From assembly GCF_004010195.1 (NCBI RefSeq), contig NC_057729.1, positions 45,982,241 through 46,046,240 on the forward strand: DNA of 64,000 nt. The letters run 5' to 3'. Below the pieces are notes generated by a model. That model was not told the origin of the DNA and ran no database searches. It saw only the letters and a program-made list of their open reading frames with translations. The DNA comes from Chiloscyllium plagiosum (taxonomy: Eukaryota). Both the position numbers and the translations under genes were made by a program. How positions within the stretch are numbered: the stretch's first letter is position 1; each line of letters opens with the position of its first letter. This document shows, one piece after another, positions 18,376 through 47,159 of the stretch.

Positions 18376-18445
18376 ACCTTTAACACTGATGACCAACCAC
18401 ATGGGCACTGAAACTTAAAATTTACAAGTGTGGGAATTTTTTCCA

Positions 18446-18669
18446 GGAGAAAGTGAGGACTGCAGATGCTGGAGATAGAGTCAAGAGTGTGTTGCTGGAA
18501 AAGCACAGCAGGTCAAGCAGCATTCAAGGAGCAGGAGAATCGATGTTTTGGGCATAAGCCCTTCATCAGGAAAGACTCCTGATGAAGAGCTTATGCCTGA
18601 AACATCGATTCTCCTGCTCCTCGGATGCTGCCTGACCTGCTGTGCTTTTCCAGCAACACACTCTTGACT
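18446..18669. mobile_element. Palindromic PLE-terminus mini-element, family A, two divergent degenerate hammerheads
   Basis: Arms 18479-18571 and 18577-18669 are near-perfect reverse complements. Cores TCATCAG (18563-18569) and CTGATGA (18579-18585). Confidence 0.9.
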
Positions 18670-19569
18670 GGGAATGTTATCCTCCAGATTTGAATTTTTG
18701 ATGATAACCTTTTTAAAAAGTGCTTTTTGTAAACCATTTTTCTGTCTTTTTGATCTCTTCCTCTTAATCCCTTTTCCCTGTCATTATTTTGCTTTCTTTA
18801 AGTGATATGTGGCATTGAACCAAACTGACACATCCTGCTTTAAATGCTATATCCCTGAGAAAGGGTGCTTCTTCACCTTAATTGGTTAATAAGACCACTA
18901 CTCACCCTATTCACCAAAGTCTTCTCGCCCTTGTAGATGGTGTTCAATTAAAATAATTTTCTAATCATAATCCGTTCTTGTATAAAGACCCACAGAAATT
19001 TTGTGAAAGTGTAATGACAGAAAAATGTGGTTATTATTCAGTTGGGCAATATGATAATACTACAAGAAATGAGCACAAAACAGACAAGATCATGAAAGAA
19101 ATAGAAAATTGTGTTGCTGAAATCAGAACTACTCAATGAGTAACAATTTACCATTTTTATAATTAAAAATAGTGCAATCAATTGTCATTTTAAAACCTTC
19201 ACATACAACTTGGTATATTTTTTACCGTAGTTACATTTATATCTATGGGTAATCATATATCTAATTCAGCACTCTACTATGCCTGTGTGCTCAGTGACTT
19301 CATGACTACAATTGAATTAATAGACTGTGGTACACATTGGGCTTTGTTCTAGACTCAGTATGATCTGCAAGCATAGTAATGTTTTTCAATCTTTATTCTA
19401 TGACTTTGCTGTTTTCTTTATGTTGAATTTGTTCAGCCTTTCCGCTGATGGGGCAATTATTAATTGGTAGCTCTTTGTGTTAACACACCATTGACACAAT
19501 GGGATGGCTTTAAAATGGTCAGGTTACTTAGTTATCTGAAAACCGCTCCCCCCCGCCCCCCTCACCTCC

Positions 19570-19695: not shown

Positions 19696-20040
19696 TACTC
19701 TATTGAACTGGCAACTTGTGCCCTTTTTAAACTGCAGGTGCCACATTTCACTGATGTAACTGGGACCAGATCGCAATTTTAATTAATGCTTTGTCAAGGA
19801 AACTGGGCCATGTTCAGGCCAGGAGAAGGCTGGTTTCATCTGCCAGGAAGGAGATCCTGATAAATTTATTATTTGTTTTCTCTTTTGGCAGCAGAGGAAA
19901 GCGATGTGTTCTTCCAGACCTTATAATGTCCCTTACTCAGCATCTTCATCACACCCTCCTCACCCATCCCACACCACCTTTCACCTGTGACCCAGTGGAT
20001 GGTGGAAATCAGATCGGTGCGAGTTCAAGCCACGCGCCAA

Positions 20041-20288
20041 AGACAAAAACAGAAATTGCTGGAGAAATTCAGCAGGACTGGCAGCATGGGTGGAGAGAAA
20101 GCAGACTTAACCTTTTGGATCCAGTGACCCTTCTCCAGTACTCTTTAGAACGTCTGAAAAAAGATCTCTGGACCCGAAATGTTAACTCTGTTTTCTCTCC
20201 ACTGATACTGCCAGACCTGATGAGTTTCTCCAGCATTTTCAGAGCTTTGTTTCTGATTTCAAGCATCCACTGTTCTTTGTCTTATTTT
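20041..20288. mobile_element. Palindromic PLE-terminus mini-element, family B
   Basis: Inverted arms around ~20140-20152; right arm contains 'gacccgaaatgttaac'; homologous to 12066-12295. Confidence 0.82.
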
Positions 20289-20289
20289 C

Positions 20290-20900
20290 GTGTCACACTC
20301 CGGAGACTTGGGCTCACAATGCAGGCTGGCAGACTCTGTTGAATTGCTGCAGTTAGAGGTGTTGTATTTTGGGATGCAATGTTAAATCAATGAATTGACT
20401 GCCTTTTCAGGTGCGTTGATTTGAAGAGGTAATTTTGCCCTGTATCCTTTCAAATATTTATCCGCCTTCTAAACCCATCACCAACTCCCATCTGGAAGGT
20501 TAAGGGCAGCAGATGCATAGAACACCACCATCAAAAGTTCCCCTCCAAGCCACTCATTTTCCAGACTTGGGAATATATCACATTTCCTTCAGTGTCACTG
20601 AATCAAAATCCTTCCTTAATAACATAACAGCTCTACCCACAGCACATGGATTGCAGTGGTTCAAGGAGGTAGCTCACCAACGTCTTCTCAAAGGCAATTA
20701 GGGATGGGCCATAAATGATAGCCTATCCAGTGATGCCCACATCAATGAGTGAATAAAAAAACACAATTAAAACAATTATCTAATCATTATATCATTATTA
20801 TTATTATGAAACACTGCATTGTGTTATTTAACATTGGTTAGAATGTGCTTTGGGATACCTGAAACTTATGAATGATGCTTTAGCGATGCAAATCTTTTCT
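20290..20900 (+). mobile_element. Deu-domain SINE split by a LINE 3' fragment
   Basis: Deu core 'gctgcagttagaggtgttgtattttgggatgcaatgttaaatc'; tail resumes after 20760 ('gtgctttgggatacctgaaac'). Confidence 0.55.
20478..20760 (+). mobile_element. 3' end of a CR1/L2-group LINE sharing its tail with the 17236 SINE family
   Basis: 'ggattgcagtggttcaaggaggtagctcaccaacgtcttctcaaaggcaattagggatgggccataaatg...gaataaaaaa'. Confidence 0.7.
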
Positions 20901-20945: not shown

Positions 20946-21076
20946 TCATTCGTGATGAAGGGCTTTTGCCCGTAATGTCGATTTTCCTGCTTCTCGGATA
21001 CTGCCTGACCTGCTGTGCTTTTCCAGCACCGCACTCTTGACTCTAATCTCCAGCATCTGCAGTCCTCACTTTTGCC
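20946..21076 (+). mobile_element. 131-bp PLE-terminus element, family A, with 14-bp TSD
   Basis: Flanked by TGATTCTGCCATCT at 20932-20945 and 21077-21090. Starts 6 nt before the degenerate core GTGATGA-A-GGGC-TTTT-GCCC-GTAA-TG-TC. Confidence 0.9.
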
Positions 21077-22176
21077 TGATTCTGCCATCTACCTTATGTT
21101 GACAGATTGCCTTCAGGTCATGGAATTTTCCGATCCTTCCCAACAATTTCCAGCTTAAAATAGGAGAGAAGTCAGTTGTTCAGGTTTAAGTTCACCCCCT
21201 GAGGTAATTTAAGCCTCAATTTCAATTCCACAGCAGTGGTAAATTTTCATTGACCTTCATATACACCTCCCCAAAACCATTCTGGAATTAAAAAATCAGG
21301 GCTCGTGTGTTGGACTGGAAAGAAATTTTACTGACGTGTTCAGCAATAATCTGTATATCACTTGTTATTTTGAGTAAGTGTGCAATGGCGAGCAGTCAGA
21401 GGTAAAAATTAAGGAACTATTTGGTGTGAAATCATGGGAAGCATATTTATGTAAAGCATATTCTGAGTCACTAACAATGTAAAGCAGATGCTTTCGTTTG
21501 TATGATGCAAAATGCACTATTATCACCTTTATGAGTTTCTCTACGAAGACTGTTTATCAGCAGCTATGAAGATACAAATTCGACATGGCGTGGACAAAAA
21601 GAAGGCAAAGAAACATCAAATGAGTACTCCTACTATCAGCATTTCTCTGCTGTTGCAAGAAATTATGATTAAAAAGGAATGCATTCCTTGAAACAGATAG
21701 ATAAGCATATGAGTATTTTATACAGATTCTTTCCCCTGTGTAGCTTTGAAAACTCAGGCTAACTGCCCCATACAGATGAATTCCTTATTGCGAGTTCAGT
21801 TCCTTGAAGGCTTTGCTACATTTTTTGCTCTTCCACCTTCCAAGTTCTGATTTCCATAAAACATGCAGGAGAAGGTGACTTGCCTGACGCCAATTAATTT
21901 GTTACAAAATATGGCAGAGTGTGAGAAGTGACATTATGTTAATATCAGCTGTGTCCCTTTAAGTCATGCATGTCATATACTGCAATCAAATTTCAAACAT
22001 CACCCATTGCCTAAAGTAATTAAAATGCATATCAGTGAAGGATATTGAGCCCCATTGGTTAAGTAACACACAGCAGACTCATATTTAGAACAGAAAGATA
22101 TGTAGGCTAGCTTCATTTTGAGGGACATATTAAATCTTACATGTAATATAGGATGGAAAAGTAGGTATAGGTACTT

Positions 22177-26690: not shown

Positions 26691-28208
26691 TACTGCGAGG
26701 TAACAGAAAACTGGAGGGTGATGAGAGTAGGTTTTGTTGTGAGCTTATACAAACAGAACTGGTTATTGTATCTGGGGGGAATTCCTCAGCACTGTTTTTA
26801 AATCATTTATCAAACCCTTTAAAATAAAGTGATTTTTGGCTTATTTTCCCAAGAATGATTCCCAAACAGAGGTAATGCACAAACATTGGAGAGGATGTTT
26901 CATTCTTTGTGGTGATGAGGGTTACAAGGAGAGTTGAAATCAGTAATGATGGTAGCAGACGGTGGTGTTAAAGAAAATAAGATGGAAGAAGAGATTTAAT
27001 TTTAGACTTCCGATTCTCATGTCGCTCTCTCCTTACATTGGAAGTACTTGAACGAAGGATTGACACAGAGAAGAGGGTTTCCTGATTCCAGTTAGTTATC
27101 TGTCCTGAATGCAGGAAATATATGGACAGGTGTAAATAGAAAGCATTAAAGATTTATCAGAGCATCTGCTGATGAGATTATAAAGTTGTTTATTATTAGA
27201 ATAGGTAATGCTTAAGCGAACCTGTTATCACCCATAAAACTCCATCAAGCTGATCTGGTCCCGGTACGTGTACATCTGGTGTTTTTCAGATGTCTTCATT
27301 TTTAAACTATCCATCATACTAGTAGCAGAGACCGCAAAACAGCCACACCGGCACTTTTCAGACTGCTCAGGTGTAGAGCTCGGCTTTGTTTCATGCAAGA
27401 GCGCAAAAGAGCTGAGAGCAGTCCTGCATCAACAGAAATGCATCCCGGGAGCAATCCCAATCTCTGACCTTCTTCATCAGGGTGGCAGTGCAGAATCAGC
27501 TCTCAGCCCCTTCCCTTCCCTGGTTATTAGAACTAGCTCTCAGCTGGCAGACAGCTGTTTTATAGCCCAATAGACTGTGGGCTTCAAACAGCCATTTTGA
27601 ACTTTCAGGGTTGAACTCGATAGATCTTTGTTAGATAGAAAATGAAAGGATGGAGAACAAAGATGGCTAAATTATATGTATAGATTAACAATGCAGTTGC
27701 CAATTTCAAAGTTTGTGGATGATATAAAATTTGGGAGCATTATAAACTGTGAGGAAGACAGTGTTGTGGAACTCCAAAGGATATATGCAAGATGGTGGAT
27801 TGGGGTAGATGAAGTTCAATGCAGAGAAGTTTAAGGCAACACATTGCGATGCAAAGAACATGGACAAATAGTATAAAATAGAGGTTATTATTCTAAACTA
27901 CGTGCTGTAGTAGAGAGATATAGGTGTATTCACACAAATCATCAAAGGTGACAAGACTGGTAGAGAGAGCAGTTAATGAATCAAACAGTGCTCCAGTTTT
28001 TATTCATGGAGGTGTAGAATGTAAGAGCAGGAAGTTATGCTGAATCTGTATAGGGCATCAGTTAGACCTCACCTGAAGTTTTGTCTATAGTTCTGTGTGT
28101 CACATTTTAGGAAGGATGTGATTGCATGGGAGAGAGTTAGGGTTAGGGTTACCTAAATAGACCCAGGGATGAGGACTTTCAGTAATGAAGAATGTTTTGA
28201 AAAGTTGA

Positions 28209-28425
28209 TATGATTTGGAGATGCTGGCGTTGGACTGGGGTGTACAAAGTTAAAACTCGCACAACACCAGGTTATAGTCCAACAGCTTTAATTGGAAGCA
28301 CACTAGCTTTCGTAACGATCGAGCCCTCCACAATCACCTGATGAAGGAGCATCGCTCCGAAAGCTAGTGTGCTTCCAATTAAACCTGTTGGACTATAACC
28401 TGGCGTTGTGTGATTTTTAACTTTG
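28209..28425. mobile_element. Palindromic PLE-terminus mini-element, family D, with 10-bp TSD
   Basis: GAAAAGTTGA at 28199-28208 and 28426-28435; inverted arms 28246-28312 and 28358-28424. Confidence 0.9.
28335..28369 (+). ncRNA. Minimal type I hammerhead ribozyme motif, intact core
   Basis: CAC-CTGATGA-A-GGAGC-ATC-GCTCC-GAAA-GC-TA|GTG: all core nucleotides present, 5-bp stem II, palindromic AGCT stem III, stem I CAC/GTG. Predicted cut after 28366; activity untested. Confidence 0.78.
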
Positions 28426-29304
28426 GAAAAGTTGAGACTGTTTCCTTTGCAGAGGCGAAAACCAAGAGGAGATTTGACTGAAGTTTTCAAAGTTATGAGT
28501 ATAGACAGAATTAGTAGAGAAAAGATGATCATGCCCATAAAAGGATCAAGATCCAGAGGGCACAGTTTTAAAATGTTTGTTTTAAAAAGAAGCAAACGTG
28601 AGATGGTAAAAAAAAAATCCTTAGATAGTGAGTAGCTAAGGTCTGGAATGCACTAATGTGTGTGTGGTGTAGCAGGTTCAATTGAGCCATGTTAAAGGGA
28701 ATTGGATGATTAGTTAAATATGAACAATGTGCAGGGTTACAGGGAAAACAAAACAGGAGTTTGGCCCAGAGAGCGAGTGCAGAGAGGATGGGCCAAATGG
28801 CCTCCTCCTGCATGGCAACAATCATATGATTCTGTGAACAAAGGAGCATTCTCAAAGGGTGAATGACCTATTTACCAACAACAAATGCAAATACACAACA
28901 TCAATAAAAGCCCAGACAAATATACTTCTTGTGTTCTACATTTTACAAGAAACATCCAGATTATTTCTTCCTATCTTACAACCACAGATCCATTTCCATC
29001 TCTTTCACCATCAACACCTGTGGCAGGGATGATTGCCACTGGTGAGAGGTTGAATTACACAAGCCTTATTAACACTGTCTCTATAACAATCAAGGCATGT
29101 TGAAGACATGGTTCAGATGTCTGAACAAATCCAGGGGGGTCTTCAGAATCCAACAGCAATGTTCTGTGCAGCACAGTGTGTGACAGAGAGGACTGAGATC
29201 ACAGAAGGAGGAAGGTGGTGATTGGTCTTTGAAGAAGGAGTTCTGACAGGAACAGGAGGAGGTTGCAAAGTTTGATAATTGACTTCAAAGGTTGGGCTCA
29301 TTCA

Positions 29305-36420: not shown

Positions 36421-36788
36421 AACAATAGACATCTCTATCAGACAGCCTTGGTAAAATCATTGAGAGACAAGCTGTTTACTAAAACTGCTCAGCCGTGGTC
36501 ATAACACTTTGCAGAGATCATCATTCTATTTATTAAAAGGTGTGTGCTATAGTTGTGTTTGGTCATATCAGCAGAGATTATCACTGGTAAGGGCAAAGTC
36601 TCCATATTGATTCCCTTTACCTTTAACAGAAAAATATTTCACAGTTTGGTGCTGACTGTTCACTAACCAAGCCACACAATTTGTGGCATGTATAAAGGAA
36701 GAACAAAATTATTCATCTAAAGCCTTATTTTTCTTGATGTTAAAAATCACACAACACCAGTTCTAGTCCAACACATTTAGTTGTAAGT

Positions 36789-36821
36789 ACTAGCTTTCGG
36801 AGCGCTGCTCCTTCATCAGGT
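36789..36821 (-). ncRNA. Minimal type I hammerhead ribozyme motif, intact core
   Basis: Minus strand AC-CTGATGA-A-GGAGC-AGC-GCTCC-GAAA-GC-TA|GT, in the same sense as the GIY-YIG ORF. Predicted cut between 36791 and 36790. Confidence 0.75.
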
Positions 36822-37180
36822 TGCTAGTGGGGTAGGATCATAAGACACAGAATTTATAGCATAAGATCATAGTGTCATGCAACCGATATGATATATTGAA
36901 CCAACTTACATTGCTGTTAAGTCTTTCATCTTTGAGAATGGGTTGCAAGTTTTGATTCAGTGATACGTAAATCCCAGAATTTCTTTCAAGGCACATACCT
37001 GAAATAACTTAAGGTTTTATAAAAAAAGCTGACATTTCAGTTCAGGCAATGCATTAAAGGTGTGAGGTTAGAGTCTGTCTGTATCCCAACCTTGAGTCAG
37101 ACTTGTTCTATTTCCAAAGTAGCAATTTATAAAATGTCACGTGGATTGACTGCCTGGATTGACGGCCTGCAGATTGTGTG

Positions 37181-42448: not shown

Positions 42449-42625
42449 AAAGTCAGAAGTCACACGACACCAGGTTTTAGTCCAATAGGTTTATGTGAAA
42501 TCATATGTTGAAGGGGCTGCGCTCCAAAAGCCTGTGATTTCAAGTAAACCTATTGGACTATAACCTGGTGTAATGTGACGTCTGACTTTGTCCACCCCAG
42601 TCCAACACCAGCACCTCCACATCAT
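42449..42625. mobile_element. Palindromic PLE-terminus mini-element, family D variant
   Basis: Arms 'aaagtcagaagtcacacgacaccagg' and 'cctggtgtaatgtgacgtctgacttt'; degenerate core TGTTGA-A-GGGGC-TGC-GCTCC-AAAAGC; CATGAATGA at 42434 and 42623. Confidence 0.82.
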
Positions 42626-44190: not shown

Positions 44191-46753
44191 AAGTCAATGT
44201 AATCCACATTGCTCAATGTAGCATAACAAGATGACTGTTTTTAATTCGACTCATTCTATAACTGTTGGAATAATAAGGATTTTGTTATGTTGGAGTGCAA
44301 ACTGTGCTCTTTTAATCAAATGGGTATGGTTTAAACTCAACTTTAAACACAATGTTCTCTTAGGGAGATAATTAAAAATAGCATTTTAGTTGGATCTCTT
44401 TTAACCCCTTACCTCTTACTTTACTTAGTGTATATTTACCCAGGTCACCATACTTATAACATGAATTAACTGACATTAGATTTCCTGTGTCAGACTAAGT
44501 CAATATCTCAGTGATGAGTTCCAGTGCTCATGTACTGGAGAGTTCTGTCAGGCTGGAGTTCTCTATTGATAACACATGTTTCAATTGAAGCAGTTTTACA
44601 TTTTGAGCAGAGGTGGTTCACTGCAGACAATGATACTGGGATAGCTCAACTCCTTGGAAAAAGTGAAAACAAAGTTCAAATCAAAAGTCCAAATCAGGTA
44701 CACAGGCCACCTTCAGGAGATTGGAGACTGAATTACATTAATGTCTATTGGCTGTGACCTCTGACACTCGTGACCAATACAGCTTGTGGCTTTCATCTAT
44801 TTCTTAATCATGAGGGTTAAGGTTGTGCAATGAGAGTTTCGCTTTTGAGAATTATCCAGCTTTGACAGTTTCACAAACTGCGCACACTATTCATTTTTTT
44901 GGTAGCAGTTCTTACTGTTCAAAGATCTCTGAGCAATGATAGGTGATGTCAAACACACTATTTTCTTGTACAAGTACGTTTTTCAGCTCATACTTATATG
45001 TACAGTACTGTGACATTTTTTCTATCACCTATTATATTAACTGGTGACAGTGCACGTGTATTAAAATGTTTATGCAAATGCTTCCTCGCCTTTGCAATGC
45101 ATTTGTTGTTTTTGCTGGATTGGTTTTACTTCACAGTTTTCTTGAAGTTTGCCCTTTAAACTTACACGTGTATGCTGCTAGTTTCATTTTGAATGGAATC
45201 TTTATCTTGTCTTGGCATCAATGAGATTGAAAGTTAATAAATCACTACAAACAAATGAATGCTGTATCTGAGACAAAGAGACCTAACAACCTAACAAAAT
45301 TGTCAATATTCAGTTCTGTTTATCACACTTTGGTGCAAAAAAGGTTTTCCACAACGACCCCATTTAAGAGTCAACAGTAAAGCTAATTCTCAGTAACACA
45401 TCTGCCTGGAGCAAATTTTGATATCTTCTCATGCAAACTGTGTGATTTCTTTCCCTCAATTGTGCTCAATTGAAAAAAGTCAAGTTGCAGAAAAGATGGA
45501 TTGTCAGCAAAAGGGAAGATTTGCCACCTGTGTTTTATGAGGGCTGTTGTGGGTTCAGGCAGTGCATTGTTTTTACCTCAAGGATTCAGAATGACTATAG
45601 TGCCAATCTATCCATTCCCTTCATTTTCCTCACTCTCATTATAACCAAATGTGATCCGCTCCTTGTTGTTCCCGATGTAAACAAGGCTCTTGATCTTTTC
45701 GCCTTCCCCCTGCAGATAATTCATTAAGATGGCAGGTAGCTCGAATCCGTCTCCCTTCAGTCATCAATATTTCATAAACTACAGTGACAAATTTATTTTA
45801 ATGTGCTTCACAGCAGCTAGTGATTGATCAGAGGCTCAAAAATATGACACGTTTCAAAGCGGGATATTCATGGAGTGTTTTAGTGAATACATTAGTCAGT
45901 GGAATGGTGAGTGAATTTATCATAGTTATGGGTCTCAGATCCATCCATTTTGTTTAGCAAATGACAGCTGCTATCTGCATGACGGTATTGATTGAGCACA
46001 AGGGTTCATCTTCAAGCACATCTAGTTAGTGCAGTTTGGATGAAATTAATATAATATGGAAGATTGACGCCAGAACAATCAGAGCATGGCTGAATTATTG
46101 ATTAATAATGTCAGAAAAATATAACTTTGGACTATTAAAAGTACAAATTATATATCTCACATGATACCTCCTCAATTTTCCCTTTTTATTCATAAAATAT
46201 TGAGGCAAGTAAATGAAACCTGAAAGCTGCTTCTTCAATTTAATGTAAGAGTTGCCAATGTTTCTGCTGCTTCCATTTAACAAGGCAAAGGAACCCTTGC
46301 CATCCGCAATTTTGTATTAAACCGGCAAGTTGTATGAAGTAACAGACAGAAGAAATGGGCAGCACTCTGCGATGGAAATCCCATTTGTCTGAATTTTTAT
46401 GAGTGTGTATATTACTTAAATATAAAAAGCACATAAAAAGGAACAGGTAGAAAGCATAGATGTGCATCAATTTGAGAGCTTAAAGCTTGTCTACATTGAG
46501 GAAGAGGAAGAGTGGGGATAGACAAAGGATGTACATAGTTCTCCTGAAGATATCTTTATTTCCTCCCCAAGGCTGGCATACTGTGGATCCAAAATTACCT
46601 GGAGTCACATGCCATCTTACTTCCTCAAAATCTCCCAAACCAGAGAAATTAGCAGGATTCATAAATAGACTGAACTAAATTTCAACACAGATTCATTTTA
46701 CCACATAAGGCAGTTTGTTTTGCAGATAGACAGCTAAAATAAGAGACAGAGCT

Positions 46754-46841
46754 AAAAAATACACAACACCAGGTTATAGTCCAACAGGTTTAATTGGAAG
46801 CACACTAGCTTTCGGAGCGCCGCTTTTTCATCAGGTGGTTG
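46754..46841 (-). mobile_element. PLE terminus, family D, hammerhead with damaged stem II
   Basis: Minus strand CAC-CTGATGA-AAAAGC-GGC-GCTCC-GAAA-GC-TA|GTG; AAAATAAGAGAC at 46736-46747 and 46857-46868. Confidence 0.85.
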
Positions 46842-47159
46842 GGCATTTCCGAATCAAAAATAAGAGACGGTTGTGAACCAGAGTAAGAGATTAGTGATAC
46901 ATGTTTAAGATTAACCTAAACTCTTCCACAGTAGCCTTTAACTCAGGCTGCCTTCAAAAGAATGACTCCCCAATCATCAATATTCAAATGGTACATTATC
47001 TAAAATATATATCTGCAAATACTCTACAACATGCCAAAACTTATATCCATAACTCTGACGTCAGCAAATGCAAAGGGCAGAATGTGATGAAAATGTAAAT
47101 CTGACTTGGTCAATGTTCGTCCTTCAATCAAAATCACTAAACCGTGTTATTTGTCCTTT

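What the first reader, a model, noticed from the sequence alone, without database searches (positions are those of the whole stretch)
28335..28369. Intact minimal hammerhead ribozyme inside a TSD-flanked 217-bp mobile palindrome
Seen: CAC-CUGAUGA-A-GGAGC(AUC)GCUCC-GAAA-GC-UA|GUG with every catalytic-core nucleotide, an extra A after A9, and stem III reduced to the palindrome AGCU. It lies in an ORF-less element with a 10-bp TSD. Established: Penelope-like elements carry such minimal hammerheads, and short-stem-III variants are reported to cleave as dimers. Inference: this is a non-autonomous, ribozyme-bearing PLE derivative of a shark genome that may still self-cleave.
Basis: partly seen in the sequence, partly recalled or inferred. 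Interest (0 to 1): 0.8.

Follow-up and report, generated by a model that had tools for sequence, protein, structure and literature searches.

The report
Hammerhead in truncated Penelope retroelement insertion
The ribozyme motif is real but ordinary: it is the end piece of a very abundant Penelope-type jumping gene, left here as a probably silent mirror-image stub, although the ends of many such stubs hint at how these elements copy themselves.

Summary
Observation confirmed: a complete minimal type I hammerhead (28335-28369, predicted cut after 28366) in a 217-bp insertion with a 10-bp duplication. It is the pseudo-LTR end of a Neptune-type Penelope-like element; longer copies carry RT and a GIY-YIG-like domain. 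A 23-mer of it occurs 47,819 times. The kind was described in 2014, and this scan has noted it repeatedly in this genome. The 217-bp unit is not a mobile family: the junction is rebuilt at each insertion. This copy lacks the TATA box, shows almost no locus-specific RNA, and its inverted arm sequesters the ribozyme (24.5 kcal/mol), so self-cleavage here is unlikely. Copies show no post-insertion selection on the core. More useful is the family record. Arm starts pile up 30 nt after a TATA box (1,229 matches versus 95-140 at control positions; 118 at the cut site), with an extra G in 95 of 100. Family RNA is polyadenylated about 30 nt after the cut site. 25 of 28 palindromes have one tailed and one untailed arm. 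This suggests that capped, uncleaved RNA is copied from two start sites, and that the pseudo-LTR is laid out like U3-R-U5.

The parts
28199..28208 (.). Left target-site duplication (10 bp)
   Evidence: flanks form one LINE reading frame with these bases repeated
28209..28312 (-). Left arm: inverted copy of the pseudo-LTR 3' part, from about +131/+132 (the ORF start codon position) back to +29; holds only the 3' half of the hammerhead
   Evidence: in full-length copy L121 this end abuts the ORF ATG
28210..28245 (-). 36-nt 'tail' between the two inferred reverse-transcription start sites, present on this arm only
   Evidence: 3' ends of sampled arms are bimodal near +92/95 and +128/131; one tailed and one untailed arm in 25 of 28 palindromes chosen without regard to the tail
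28313..28425 (+). Right arm: sense copy of the pseudo-LTR from -17 to +96, no TATA box, no tail; G28312 is a 1-nt overlap with the left arm
   Evidence: upstream template seen in loci L061-L090; 3 differences from the subfamily majority
28330..28330 (+). Inferred transcription start (+1) of the parent element; TATAAAT begins 30 nt upstream in longer copies
   Evidence: inferred: spacing; pile-up of arm starts with an extra G
28335..28369 (+). Minimal type I hammerhead: stem I 3 bp, full core, extra A, stem II 5 bp, palindromic AGCU in place of stem III; predicted cut after 28366
   Evidence: features as listed in PMC4209133
28378..28398 (+). Polyadenylation hexamer ATTAAA (28378-28383) and poly(A) addition site of family transcripts (about 28395-28398, +66 to +69)
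   Evidence: 348 + 419 reads of run X19 carry poly(A) behind 28395 and 28398; these are family reads, not this locus
28426..28435 (.). Right target-site duplication
28031..28596 (+). Older decayed CR1-type LINE ORF2 end into which the element inserted (extent shown by translation only; it may be longer)
   Evidence: CR1 label is recalled, not from a call

Best explanation
This is a dead-on-arrival insertion made by an autonomous Neptune-type Penelope-like element (PLE). SHOWN: the sequence is the pseudo-LTR end of elements that encode RT plus a C-terminal endonuclease. It is present as two 5'-truncated copies joined head to head, one ending at the ORF start (+131) and one about 36 nt earlier (+96), inside a 10-bp duplication. 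INFERRED mechanism: the element's endonuclease nicks both target strands about 10 bp apart. Each nick primes a cDNA at one of two internal start sites near the 5' end of the element RNA. Both cDNAs run back toward the RNA 5' end through the hammerhead and are joined by short microhomology. Many arms in the family stop at the capped transcription start, so their template was not cut by the ribozyme. This copy's right arm runs 17 nt past that start, so its template continued upstream (read-through RNA, an end-to-end jump, or a circle). The hammerhead is inherited cargo. It was kept intact in the active parents, where it probably cleaves only as a dimer or with the element's protein, but this copy has no promoter, is sequestered by its own inverted arm, and decays neutrally.
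For: Partner ORF: RT match RVT_1 above cutoff in 3 of 3 long frames. DKG and YIDD motifs, a CX4CX2C linker and a VY...YIG domain are visible. The C-terminal part lies near clusters with GIY-YIG members (16 of 30 hits in a set where 11% of members carry PF01541, score 0.95), and some full-length homologues carry PF01541. Layout hammerhead-tail-ATG-ORF in L121. Junctions vary: 41 combinations in 57 palindromes. One tailed and one untailed arm in 25 of 28, both tailed in 0 of 28 (p=3e-5 against one half). Published parallels: inverted truncated copy with a tail at one end (PMC8557442; PMC3846280); two internal start sites, both strands nicked and extended, hammerhead needs the protein and is dispensable in vitro (PMC11167929). 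Arm starts counted genome-wide with a 21-nt exact core preceded by two non-template bases: +1 1,229, -3 140, +36 95, cut site +38 118. G before +1 in 95 of 100 listed versus 37 of 100 at -3 (hand counts). Neutral decay: C11.1>T (tolerated) 18 versus G12>A (lethal) 17 of 193 arms; core 5 of 270 versus non-core 6 of 510 mismatches in 27 arms not selected on the core, p=0.53. Sequestration: 24.5 kcal/mol.
Against: No cleavage assay. No fully intact ORF was seen: long frames were interrupted by stops, frameshifts or N runs. Pfam found no domain in 5 of 5 short broken fragments and no GIY-YIG in the 3 long frames; the endonuclease call rests on motifs, homologues and the Atlas. No RT tree was built, so 'Neptune' rests on the linker motif. 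Part of the G excess can come from the opposite arm. Of 21 true ends with G among 30 loci, up to 5 fit a GA microhomology and 9 have G as the arm's next base; only 7 have no template (plus reading by eye). The RNA evidence is one run read at about 2%; the second raw run laid 0 reads. A 30-nt cleaved 3' fragment would be poorly captured in that library, so the lack of a pile-up at the cut site in RNA is weak evidence.
Confidence: 0.85

Rival explanations
1. Short arms come from non-autonomous sources: thousands of truncated copies that still hold the TATA box, +1 and the tail make short RNAs that the element's protein copies in trans, a SINE-like or retrozyme-like amplification. This can coexist with the best explanation. 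It would make the reader's 'non-autonomous derivative' right for the family, though not for this copy as a source.
For: 3,729 exact copies extend at least 4 nt upstream of +1, and most of 30 sampled keep the TATA region. Short palindromes are abundant: 2,837 junction matches, some counted on both strands. Trans-mobilisation by pseudo-LTRs alone is reported in a rotifer (PMC3846280 passages).
Against: [quoted passage not shown] The poly(A) site at +66/69 lies upstream of both start sites, so a short polyadenylated RNA would lack them. No tandem array of the unit was seen in the loci examined. This copy has no TATA box.
Confidence: 0.3
2. This copy is still a working ribozyme in some host transcript, cleaving in trans with another family RNA or with help from protein.
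For: All core bases and both stems are intact, and the copy differs from the subfamily majority at only 8 of 217 positions (the 5 left-arm differences read by eye after an off-by-one in that script). An RNA spanning only +1 to +69 reaches the active fold at 2.4 kcal/mol, with stem I probability 0.16. Family RNA is present in cells as a possible partner.
Against: Any read-through transcript includes the left arm and folds into a -120 kcal/mol hairpin. Flank depth was 0-1 reads. An intact core is expected at this age: 18 of 27 unselected arms are intact. Monomeric minimal hammerheads showed no detectable cleavage and dimers only low cleavage (PMC4209133).
Confidence: 0.1
3. The element is a MITE-like DNA transposon or fold-back unit that moves as a 217-bp palindrome, and the hammerhead look is incidental.
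For: Long terminal-reaching inverted repeat, no ORF, target-site duplication.
Against: The arms are asymmetric, and the centre differs per copy. The same sequence flanks RT-endonuclease ORFs. Two unrelated repeat families keep the same core with different stems.
Confidence: 0.02

Closest known systems
Minimal hammerheads (min-HHR) in the pseudo-LTRs of metazoan Penelope-like elements (Cervera and De la Pena 2014, PMC4209133; parts 1-2 of 4 of the text read, supplements not seen)
   Same: Full core, a nucleotide between 9 and 10.1, G10.1-C11.1 pair, palindromic 15.2-16.2, short stem I; mostly solo motifs from truncated elements; pairs on opposite strands 100-700 bp apart are mentioned there.
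   Different: Sharks are not named in the parts read. Stem II here is 5 bp (7-8 bp in the schistosome families). Copy number here is higher: 47,819 exact 23-mers of the 3' end against about 9,000 motifs in Xenopus, though the two counts measure different things.
Insertion architecture of endonuclease-bearing PLEs: inverted 5'-truncated copy plus 30-40-bp tail at one end (Craig et al. 2021, PMC8557442; Arkhipova et al. 2013, PMC3846280; passages only)
   Same: Head-to-head inverted ends, tail on one end, target-site duplication of about 10 bp, zinc-finger-like linker between RT and endonuclease as in Neptune/Nematis.
   Different: Here both copies are cut down to about 100 bp, so no ORF remains. 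The 2013 passages explain head-to-head junctions by self-priming on an antisense template, whereas the data here fit two cDNAs made on sense RNA.
Poseidon element of the green anole, in vitro (Frangieh et al. 2024, PMC11167929; parts 1-2 of 4 and passages read, supplements not seen)
   Same: Two internal start sites bracket the tail; both target strands are nicked and extended; the hammerhead lies just upstream; uncleaved RNA is the main substrate.
   Different: Different clade. There the ORF begins inside stem II and the start sites are 111-118 nt or more into the ORF; here the outer site coincides with the ATG about 95 nt after the cut site. The parts read do not map a transcription start, cap or poly(A) site.
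Non-LTR (animal) retrozymes (bioRxiv 10.64898/2026.07.22.740005; part 1 of 5 and passages read, supplements not seen)
   Same: ORF-less, type I hammerhead, related to PLE pseudo-LTRs; reported in the one chondrichthyan sampled.
   Different: Retrozymes are defined there as head-to-tail tandem repeats with at least two hammerhead units; this is a single head-to-head insertion with one complete hammerhead.

Membership tests
Minimal type I hammerhead of PLEs | Conserved core C3-U4-G5-A6-N7-G8-A9, G12-A13-A14, A15.1-U16.1, H17 | tested here: met
Minimal type I hammerhead of PLEs | Extra nucleotide after A9, G10.1-C11.1 pair, palindromic 15.2-16.2 | tested here: met
   A28345; G28346-C28358; AGCU 28362-28365; features from PMC4209133
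Minimal type I hammerhead of PLEs | Core kept while stems vary or covary across families | tested here: met
   read by eye: sister subfamily has stem I UAC/GUA for CAC/GUG; an older one has U17 and a 6-bp stem I; two other families keep the core with ACGU and different stems II. No formal covariation statistic was run (alignment A1, did not hold the stems in register).
Minimal type I hammerhead of PLEs | Self-cleavage (dimer or protein-assisted) | not testable with these tools
   folding only; RNA reads show no pile of ends at the site, a weak test
Rfam hammerhead families | Score at or above gathering threshold | tested here: not met
Endonuclease-bearing Penelope-like element | Single ORF with RT followed by GIY-YIG endonuclease in the parent | tested here: met
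   RVT_1 in 3 of 3 long frames; C-terminal GIY-YIG by motif, Atlas lead and homologues; no direct Pfam GIY-YIG hit
Endonuclease-bearing Penelope-like element | Pseudo-LTR with hammerhead, optional 30-40-bp tail, inverted truncated copy, target-site duplication | tested here: met
Neptune clade | CX2-5CxxC linker between RT and endonuclease (shared with Nematis) | tested here: met
   CHGGRCKTC-type motif in L091, L092, L117, L121; definition from PMC8557442
Neptune clade | Placement in an RT tree with reference Neptune elements | not tested
   no named reference elements were available from the tools
Non-LTR retrozyme | Head-to-tail tandem units each with a hammerhead | tested here: not met
   single head-to-head insertion
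MITE or other unit-length non-autonomous family | Copies share a fixed length and internal junction | tested here: not met
   130-232 bp and 41 junction combinations in 57 copies

The most novel reading that the evidence does not exclude
The pseudo-LTR of this Neptune element is organised like a retroviral LTR: U3 with a TATA box at -30; R from the cap (+1) to the poly(A) site (+66/69), which is little more than the hammerhead; U5 holding both reverse-transcription start sites. A protein dimer primes one cDNA at each site on capped RNA. cDNAs that run off the cap (adding a C opposite it) give the thousands of short palindromes. Long insertions require crossing from the 5' R to the 3' R. The two half-ribozymes in the two R copies may serve that crossing: they pair through AGCU and swapped stem I, and either hold the RNA ends together for a strand jump or cut and close it into a circle. 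This would give PLE hammerheads a concrete job and explain both the tail and the head-to-head inversions.
Probability: 0.3. Interest if true: 0.7.

Novelty: new member of a known kind. Interest (0 to 1): 0.33.

Why it matters
The single copy matters little: it is one of tens of thousands of stubs of a described kind, and 103 earlier notes of this scan in this genome fit the words hammerhead and Penelope. What could matter is the family record. How PLEs are copied and what their hammerheads do are stated as open questions in PMC8557442 and PMC11167929. This genome offers a large natural record of insertion ends that points to capped, uncleaved template, one cDNA per start site, and a poly(A) site upstream of those start sites. 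Each of these points can be tested directly.

Tried and rejected
Rfam: no hammerhead hit; the weak matches were microRNA hairpin models that only reflect the inverted repeat. Pfam on five short broken fragments gave nothing. A PDB sequence search gave 2 irrelevant hits at E 0.6. Sequencing runs: no listed holder is on record as RNA, which is no evidence either way; run X20 laid 0 reads. An empty-site search by DNA similarity of the flanks among fetched loci found 0 pairs; the protein frame was used instead. Subfamily sorting mislabelled group D (130 arms) because a motif also matched the 3' end, and F1-D is also mixed; only group A counts are used. The left-arm difference list is off by one and was re-read by eye. 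The 80 rows contain a few duplicates from locus edges and were scored against one subfamily, so they are used only for the two 3' end modes. Five of those rows start at +39/+40; some may be true cut-site ends in sister subfamilies, which one search did not test. A splice acceptor at +1 as the source of the G was rejected because the template has CC, not AG, at -2/-1. Replication in a second repeat family was only suggestive: about 11 of 22 short arms have a G within two bases of the start (by eye). The dimer energy could not include both stems I (not nested) and is not used. No loci were obtained for the +36 and -3 controls, so their share of true ends is unknown; about half of the first 30 of 118 cut-site matches were true ends by eye.

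Full report
1. The observation. It has every core base, the extra nucleotide after A9, the G10.1-C11.1 pair and the palindromic AGCU that Cervera and De la Pena list for minimal hammerheads of Penelope-like elements (PMC4209133; parts 1-2 of 4 read). My descriptor finds it once in the window against a mean of 0.01 in 100 shuffles. Rfam does not recognise it. The element is 217 bp with a 10-bp duplication. The flanks read as one old LINE frame with the duplicated bases repeated.

2. What the element is. A search with the element returned 1,305 candidates, of which 40 were scored and all matched. An exact 25-mer over the ribozyme's 5' half occurs 3,729 times and an exact 23-mer of the 3' part 47,819 times; reversed controls gave 0. 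Longer copies continue upstream into frames with DKG and YIDD motifs, a CX4CX2C linker and a VY...YIG domain. Pfam RVT_1 passes its cutoff in 3 of 3 long frames. The C-terminal part lies near GIY-YIG-bearing clusters in the Atlas, a lead only, since 11% of members in that set carry the family. Some full-length homologues carry GIY-YIG, and the closest named ones are shark proteins at up to 91% identity. In L121 the order is hammerhead, tail, ATG, ORF. The linker marks Neptune or Nematis elements (PMC8557442 passages); no tree was built, and no fully intact ORF was seen.

3. Anatomy of this copy. Numbering from window 28330 as +1, the left arm (28209-28312, minus strand) covers +131 back to +29 and the right arm (28313-28425) covers -17 to +96. 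Sampled arm 3' ends fall in two modes, near +92/95 and +128/131. Among 28 palindromes chosen only by their centre, 25 have one tailed and one untailed arm, 3 have neither and 0 have both (p=3e-5 against one half). The 29 chosen by likeness to the query are biased and not counted for this. Across all 57, lengths run 130-232 bp with 41 junction combinations, so the palindrome is rebuilt at each insertion. This matches the published layout of an inverted truncated copy with a tail at one end. It also fits the in vitro finding of two internal start sites with both strands nicked and extended (PMC11167929).

4. Where arms begin. In longer copies TATAAAT begins 30 nt before +1. I counted 21-nt exact cores preceded by two non-template bases: 1,229 at +1, 140 at -3, 95 at +36 and 118 at the cut site +38 (not different from +36, p=0.13). 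The base before +1 is G in 95 of 100 listed, against 37 of 100 at -3 (hand counts). In 30 inspected loci, 24 were true ends and 21 of those had G. Up to 5 fit a GA microhomology with the other arm, 9 have G as that arm's next base, and 7 have no template, including one locus with G on both arms (partly by eye). Untemplated G at full-length L1 and SVA insertions is attributed to copying of the cap (PMC3287187 passages). I infer that many arms are complete copies of a capped RNA 5' end, and hence of RNA the ribozyme had not cut. Limits: the cut-site test covers one subfamily, and controls at +36 and -3 were not inspected.

5. RNA. In run X19 (poly(A) single-cell library, about 2% read), 1,906 reads were laid, 1,903 only in part, and the flanks had 0-1 reads, so they come from other family members. 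Depth is 1,155 before and 1,098 after the cut site, with no pile of ends. 348 + 419 reads carry poly(A) behind 28395 and 28398, 12-15 nt after ATTAAA, and 110 more from a sister subfamily with AATAAA end at the same place. Run X20 laid nothing. A cleaved 30-nt fragment would be poorly captured, so this does not exclude cleavage. The number of source loci is unknown.

6. Is this copy active? The copy lacks the TATA box. Copies show no sign of selection: the tolerated and the lethal change of the same CpG occur 18 and 17 times in 193 arms, and core and non-core mismatch rates do not differ in 27 arms (p=0.53). Selection is visible only between families: a sister subfamily changes a stem I pair on both sides, and two other repeat families keep the core with wholly different stems (read by eye). 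Published minimal hammerheads were inactive as monomers and weak as dimers. The anole one needed the element's protein and was dispensable for insertion in vitro.

7. Mechanism. Shown: sequence identity, ORF linkage, arm geometry, end counts, and poly(A) reads in one run. Inferred: two nicks, two cDNAs, one per start site, joined by microhomology; a cap-derived G; a U3-R-U5-like layout. Speculative: that the paired half-ribozymes help the crossing from the 5' to the 3' repeat. The right arm here passes +1 by 17 nt, so it needed read-through RNA, a jump or a circle. The Drosophila element has a TATA-less internal promoter (PMC2377424 passages), so the layout is not general to all PLEs.

8. Novelty. 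The kind is known. Seven literature searches in an open-access library turned up no paper on this shark family or on cap-terminated PLE arms. Most subscription papers, Repbase and Dfam were not searchable, and supplements were not seen, so this is weak. Earlier notes of this scan already report these palindromes, their variable centres and the clustering of 5' ends before the hammerhead. I read them after my own analysis; they are not independent support.

9. Verdict. Real, correctly parsed, a new member of a known kind, and probably inert at this locus. Interest 0.33, carried by the family-level mechanistic lead.

Noticed in passing
window 46736-46868 (minus strand): Same family, with only a 15-nt inverted tail stub before a near-complete arm and a duplication of about 12 bp; its hammerhead is not sequestered but stem II has two changes.
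   Followed up: partly
window 36739-37180 (minus strand): Sister-subfamily copy of about 440 bp that keeps the TATA box and has the compensatory-type short stem I; 5,269 candidates in the genome search, 40 scored.
   Followed up: partly
window 42449-42625: Older, decayed palindrome of a related subfamily with the same one-tail layout and a broken core.
   Followed up: partly
window 18445-18670 and 20948-21080: A second, unrelated hammerhead-bearing repeat family (palindrome ACGU, 4-bp stem II), once as a head-to-head palindrome and once as a single arm with a duplication; 68 arms of it turned up among the fetched loci and the window.
   Followed up: partly
L236 627 and 964; L019, L150, L259: A third hammerhead-bearing family with a longer stem II, an extra U after A9, and a TATA box followed by an initiator-like sequence upstream of the ribozyme.
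   Followed up: no
PMC11167929 methods passage: The anole template printed there also shows a TATA-like run about 30 nt before an initiator-like sequence just upstream of the hammerhead; this is my reading, not the authors'.
   Followed up: no
L250 upstream of the arm; L122: A short arm starting at +1 lies directly after sequence from the 5' part of the element's own ORF, and a second-family copy sits inside an ORF copy: nested insertions or template jumps.
   Followed up: no
window 19755-20342 (+): 195-codon stop-free frame that does not look like the surrounding LINE debris; not examined.
   Followed up: no
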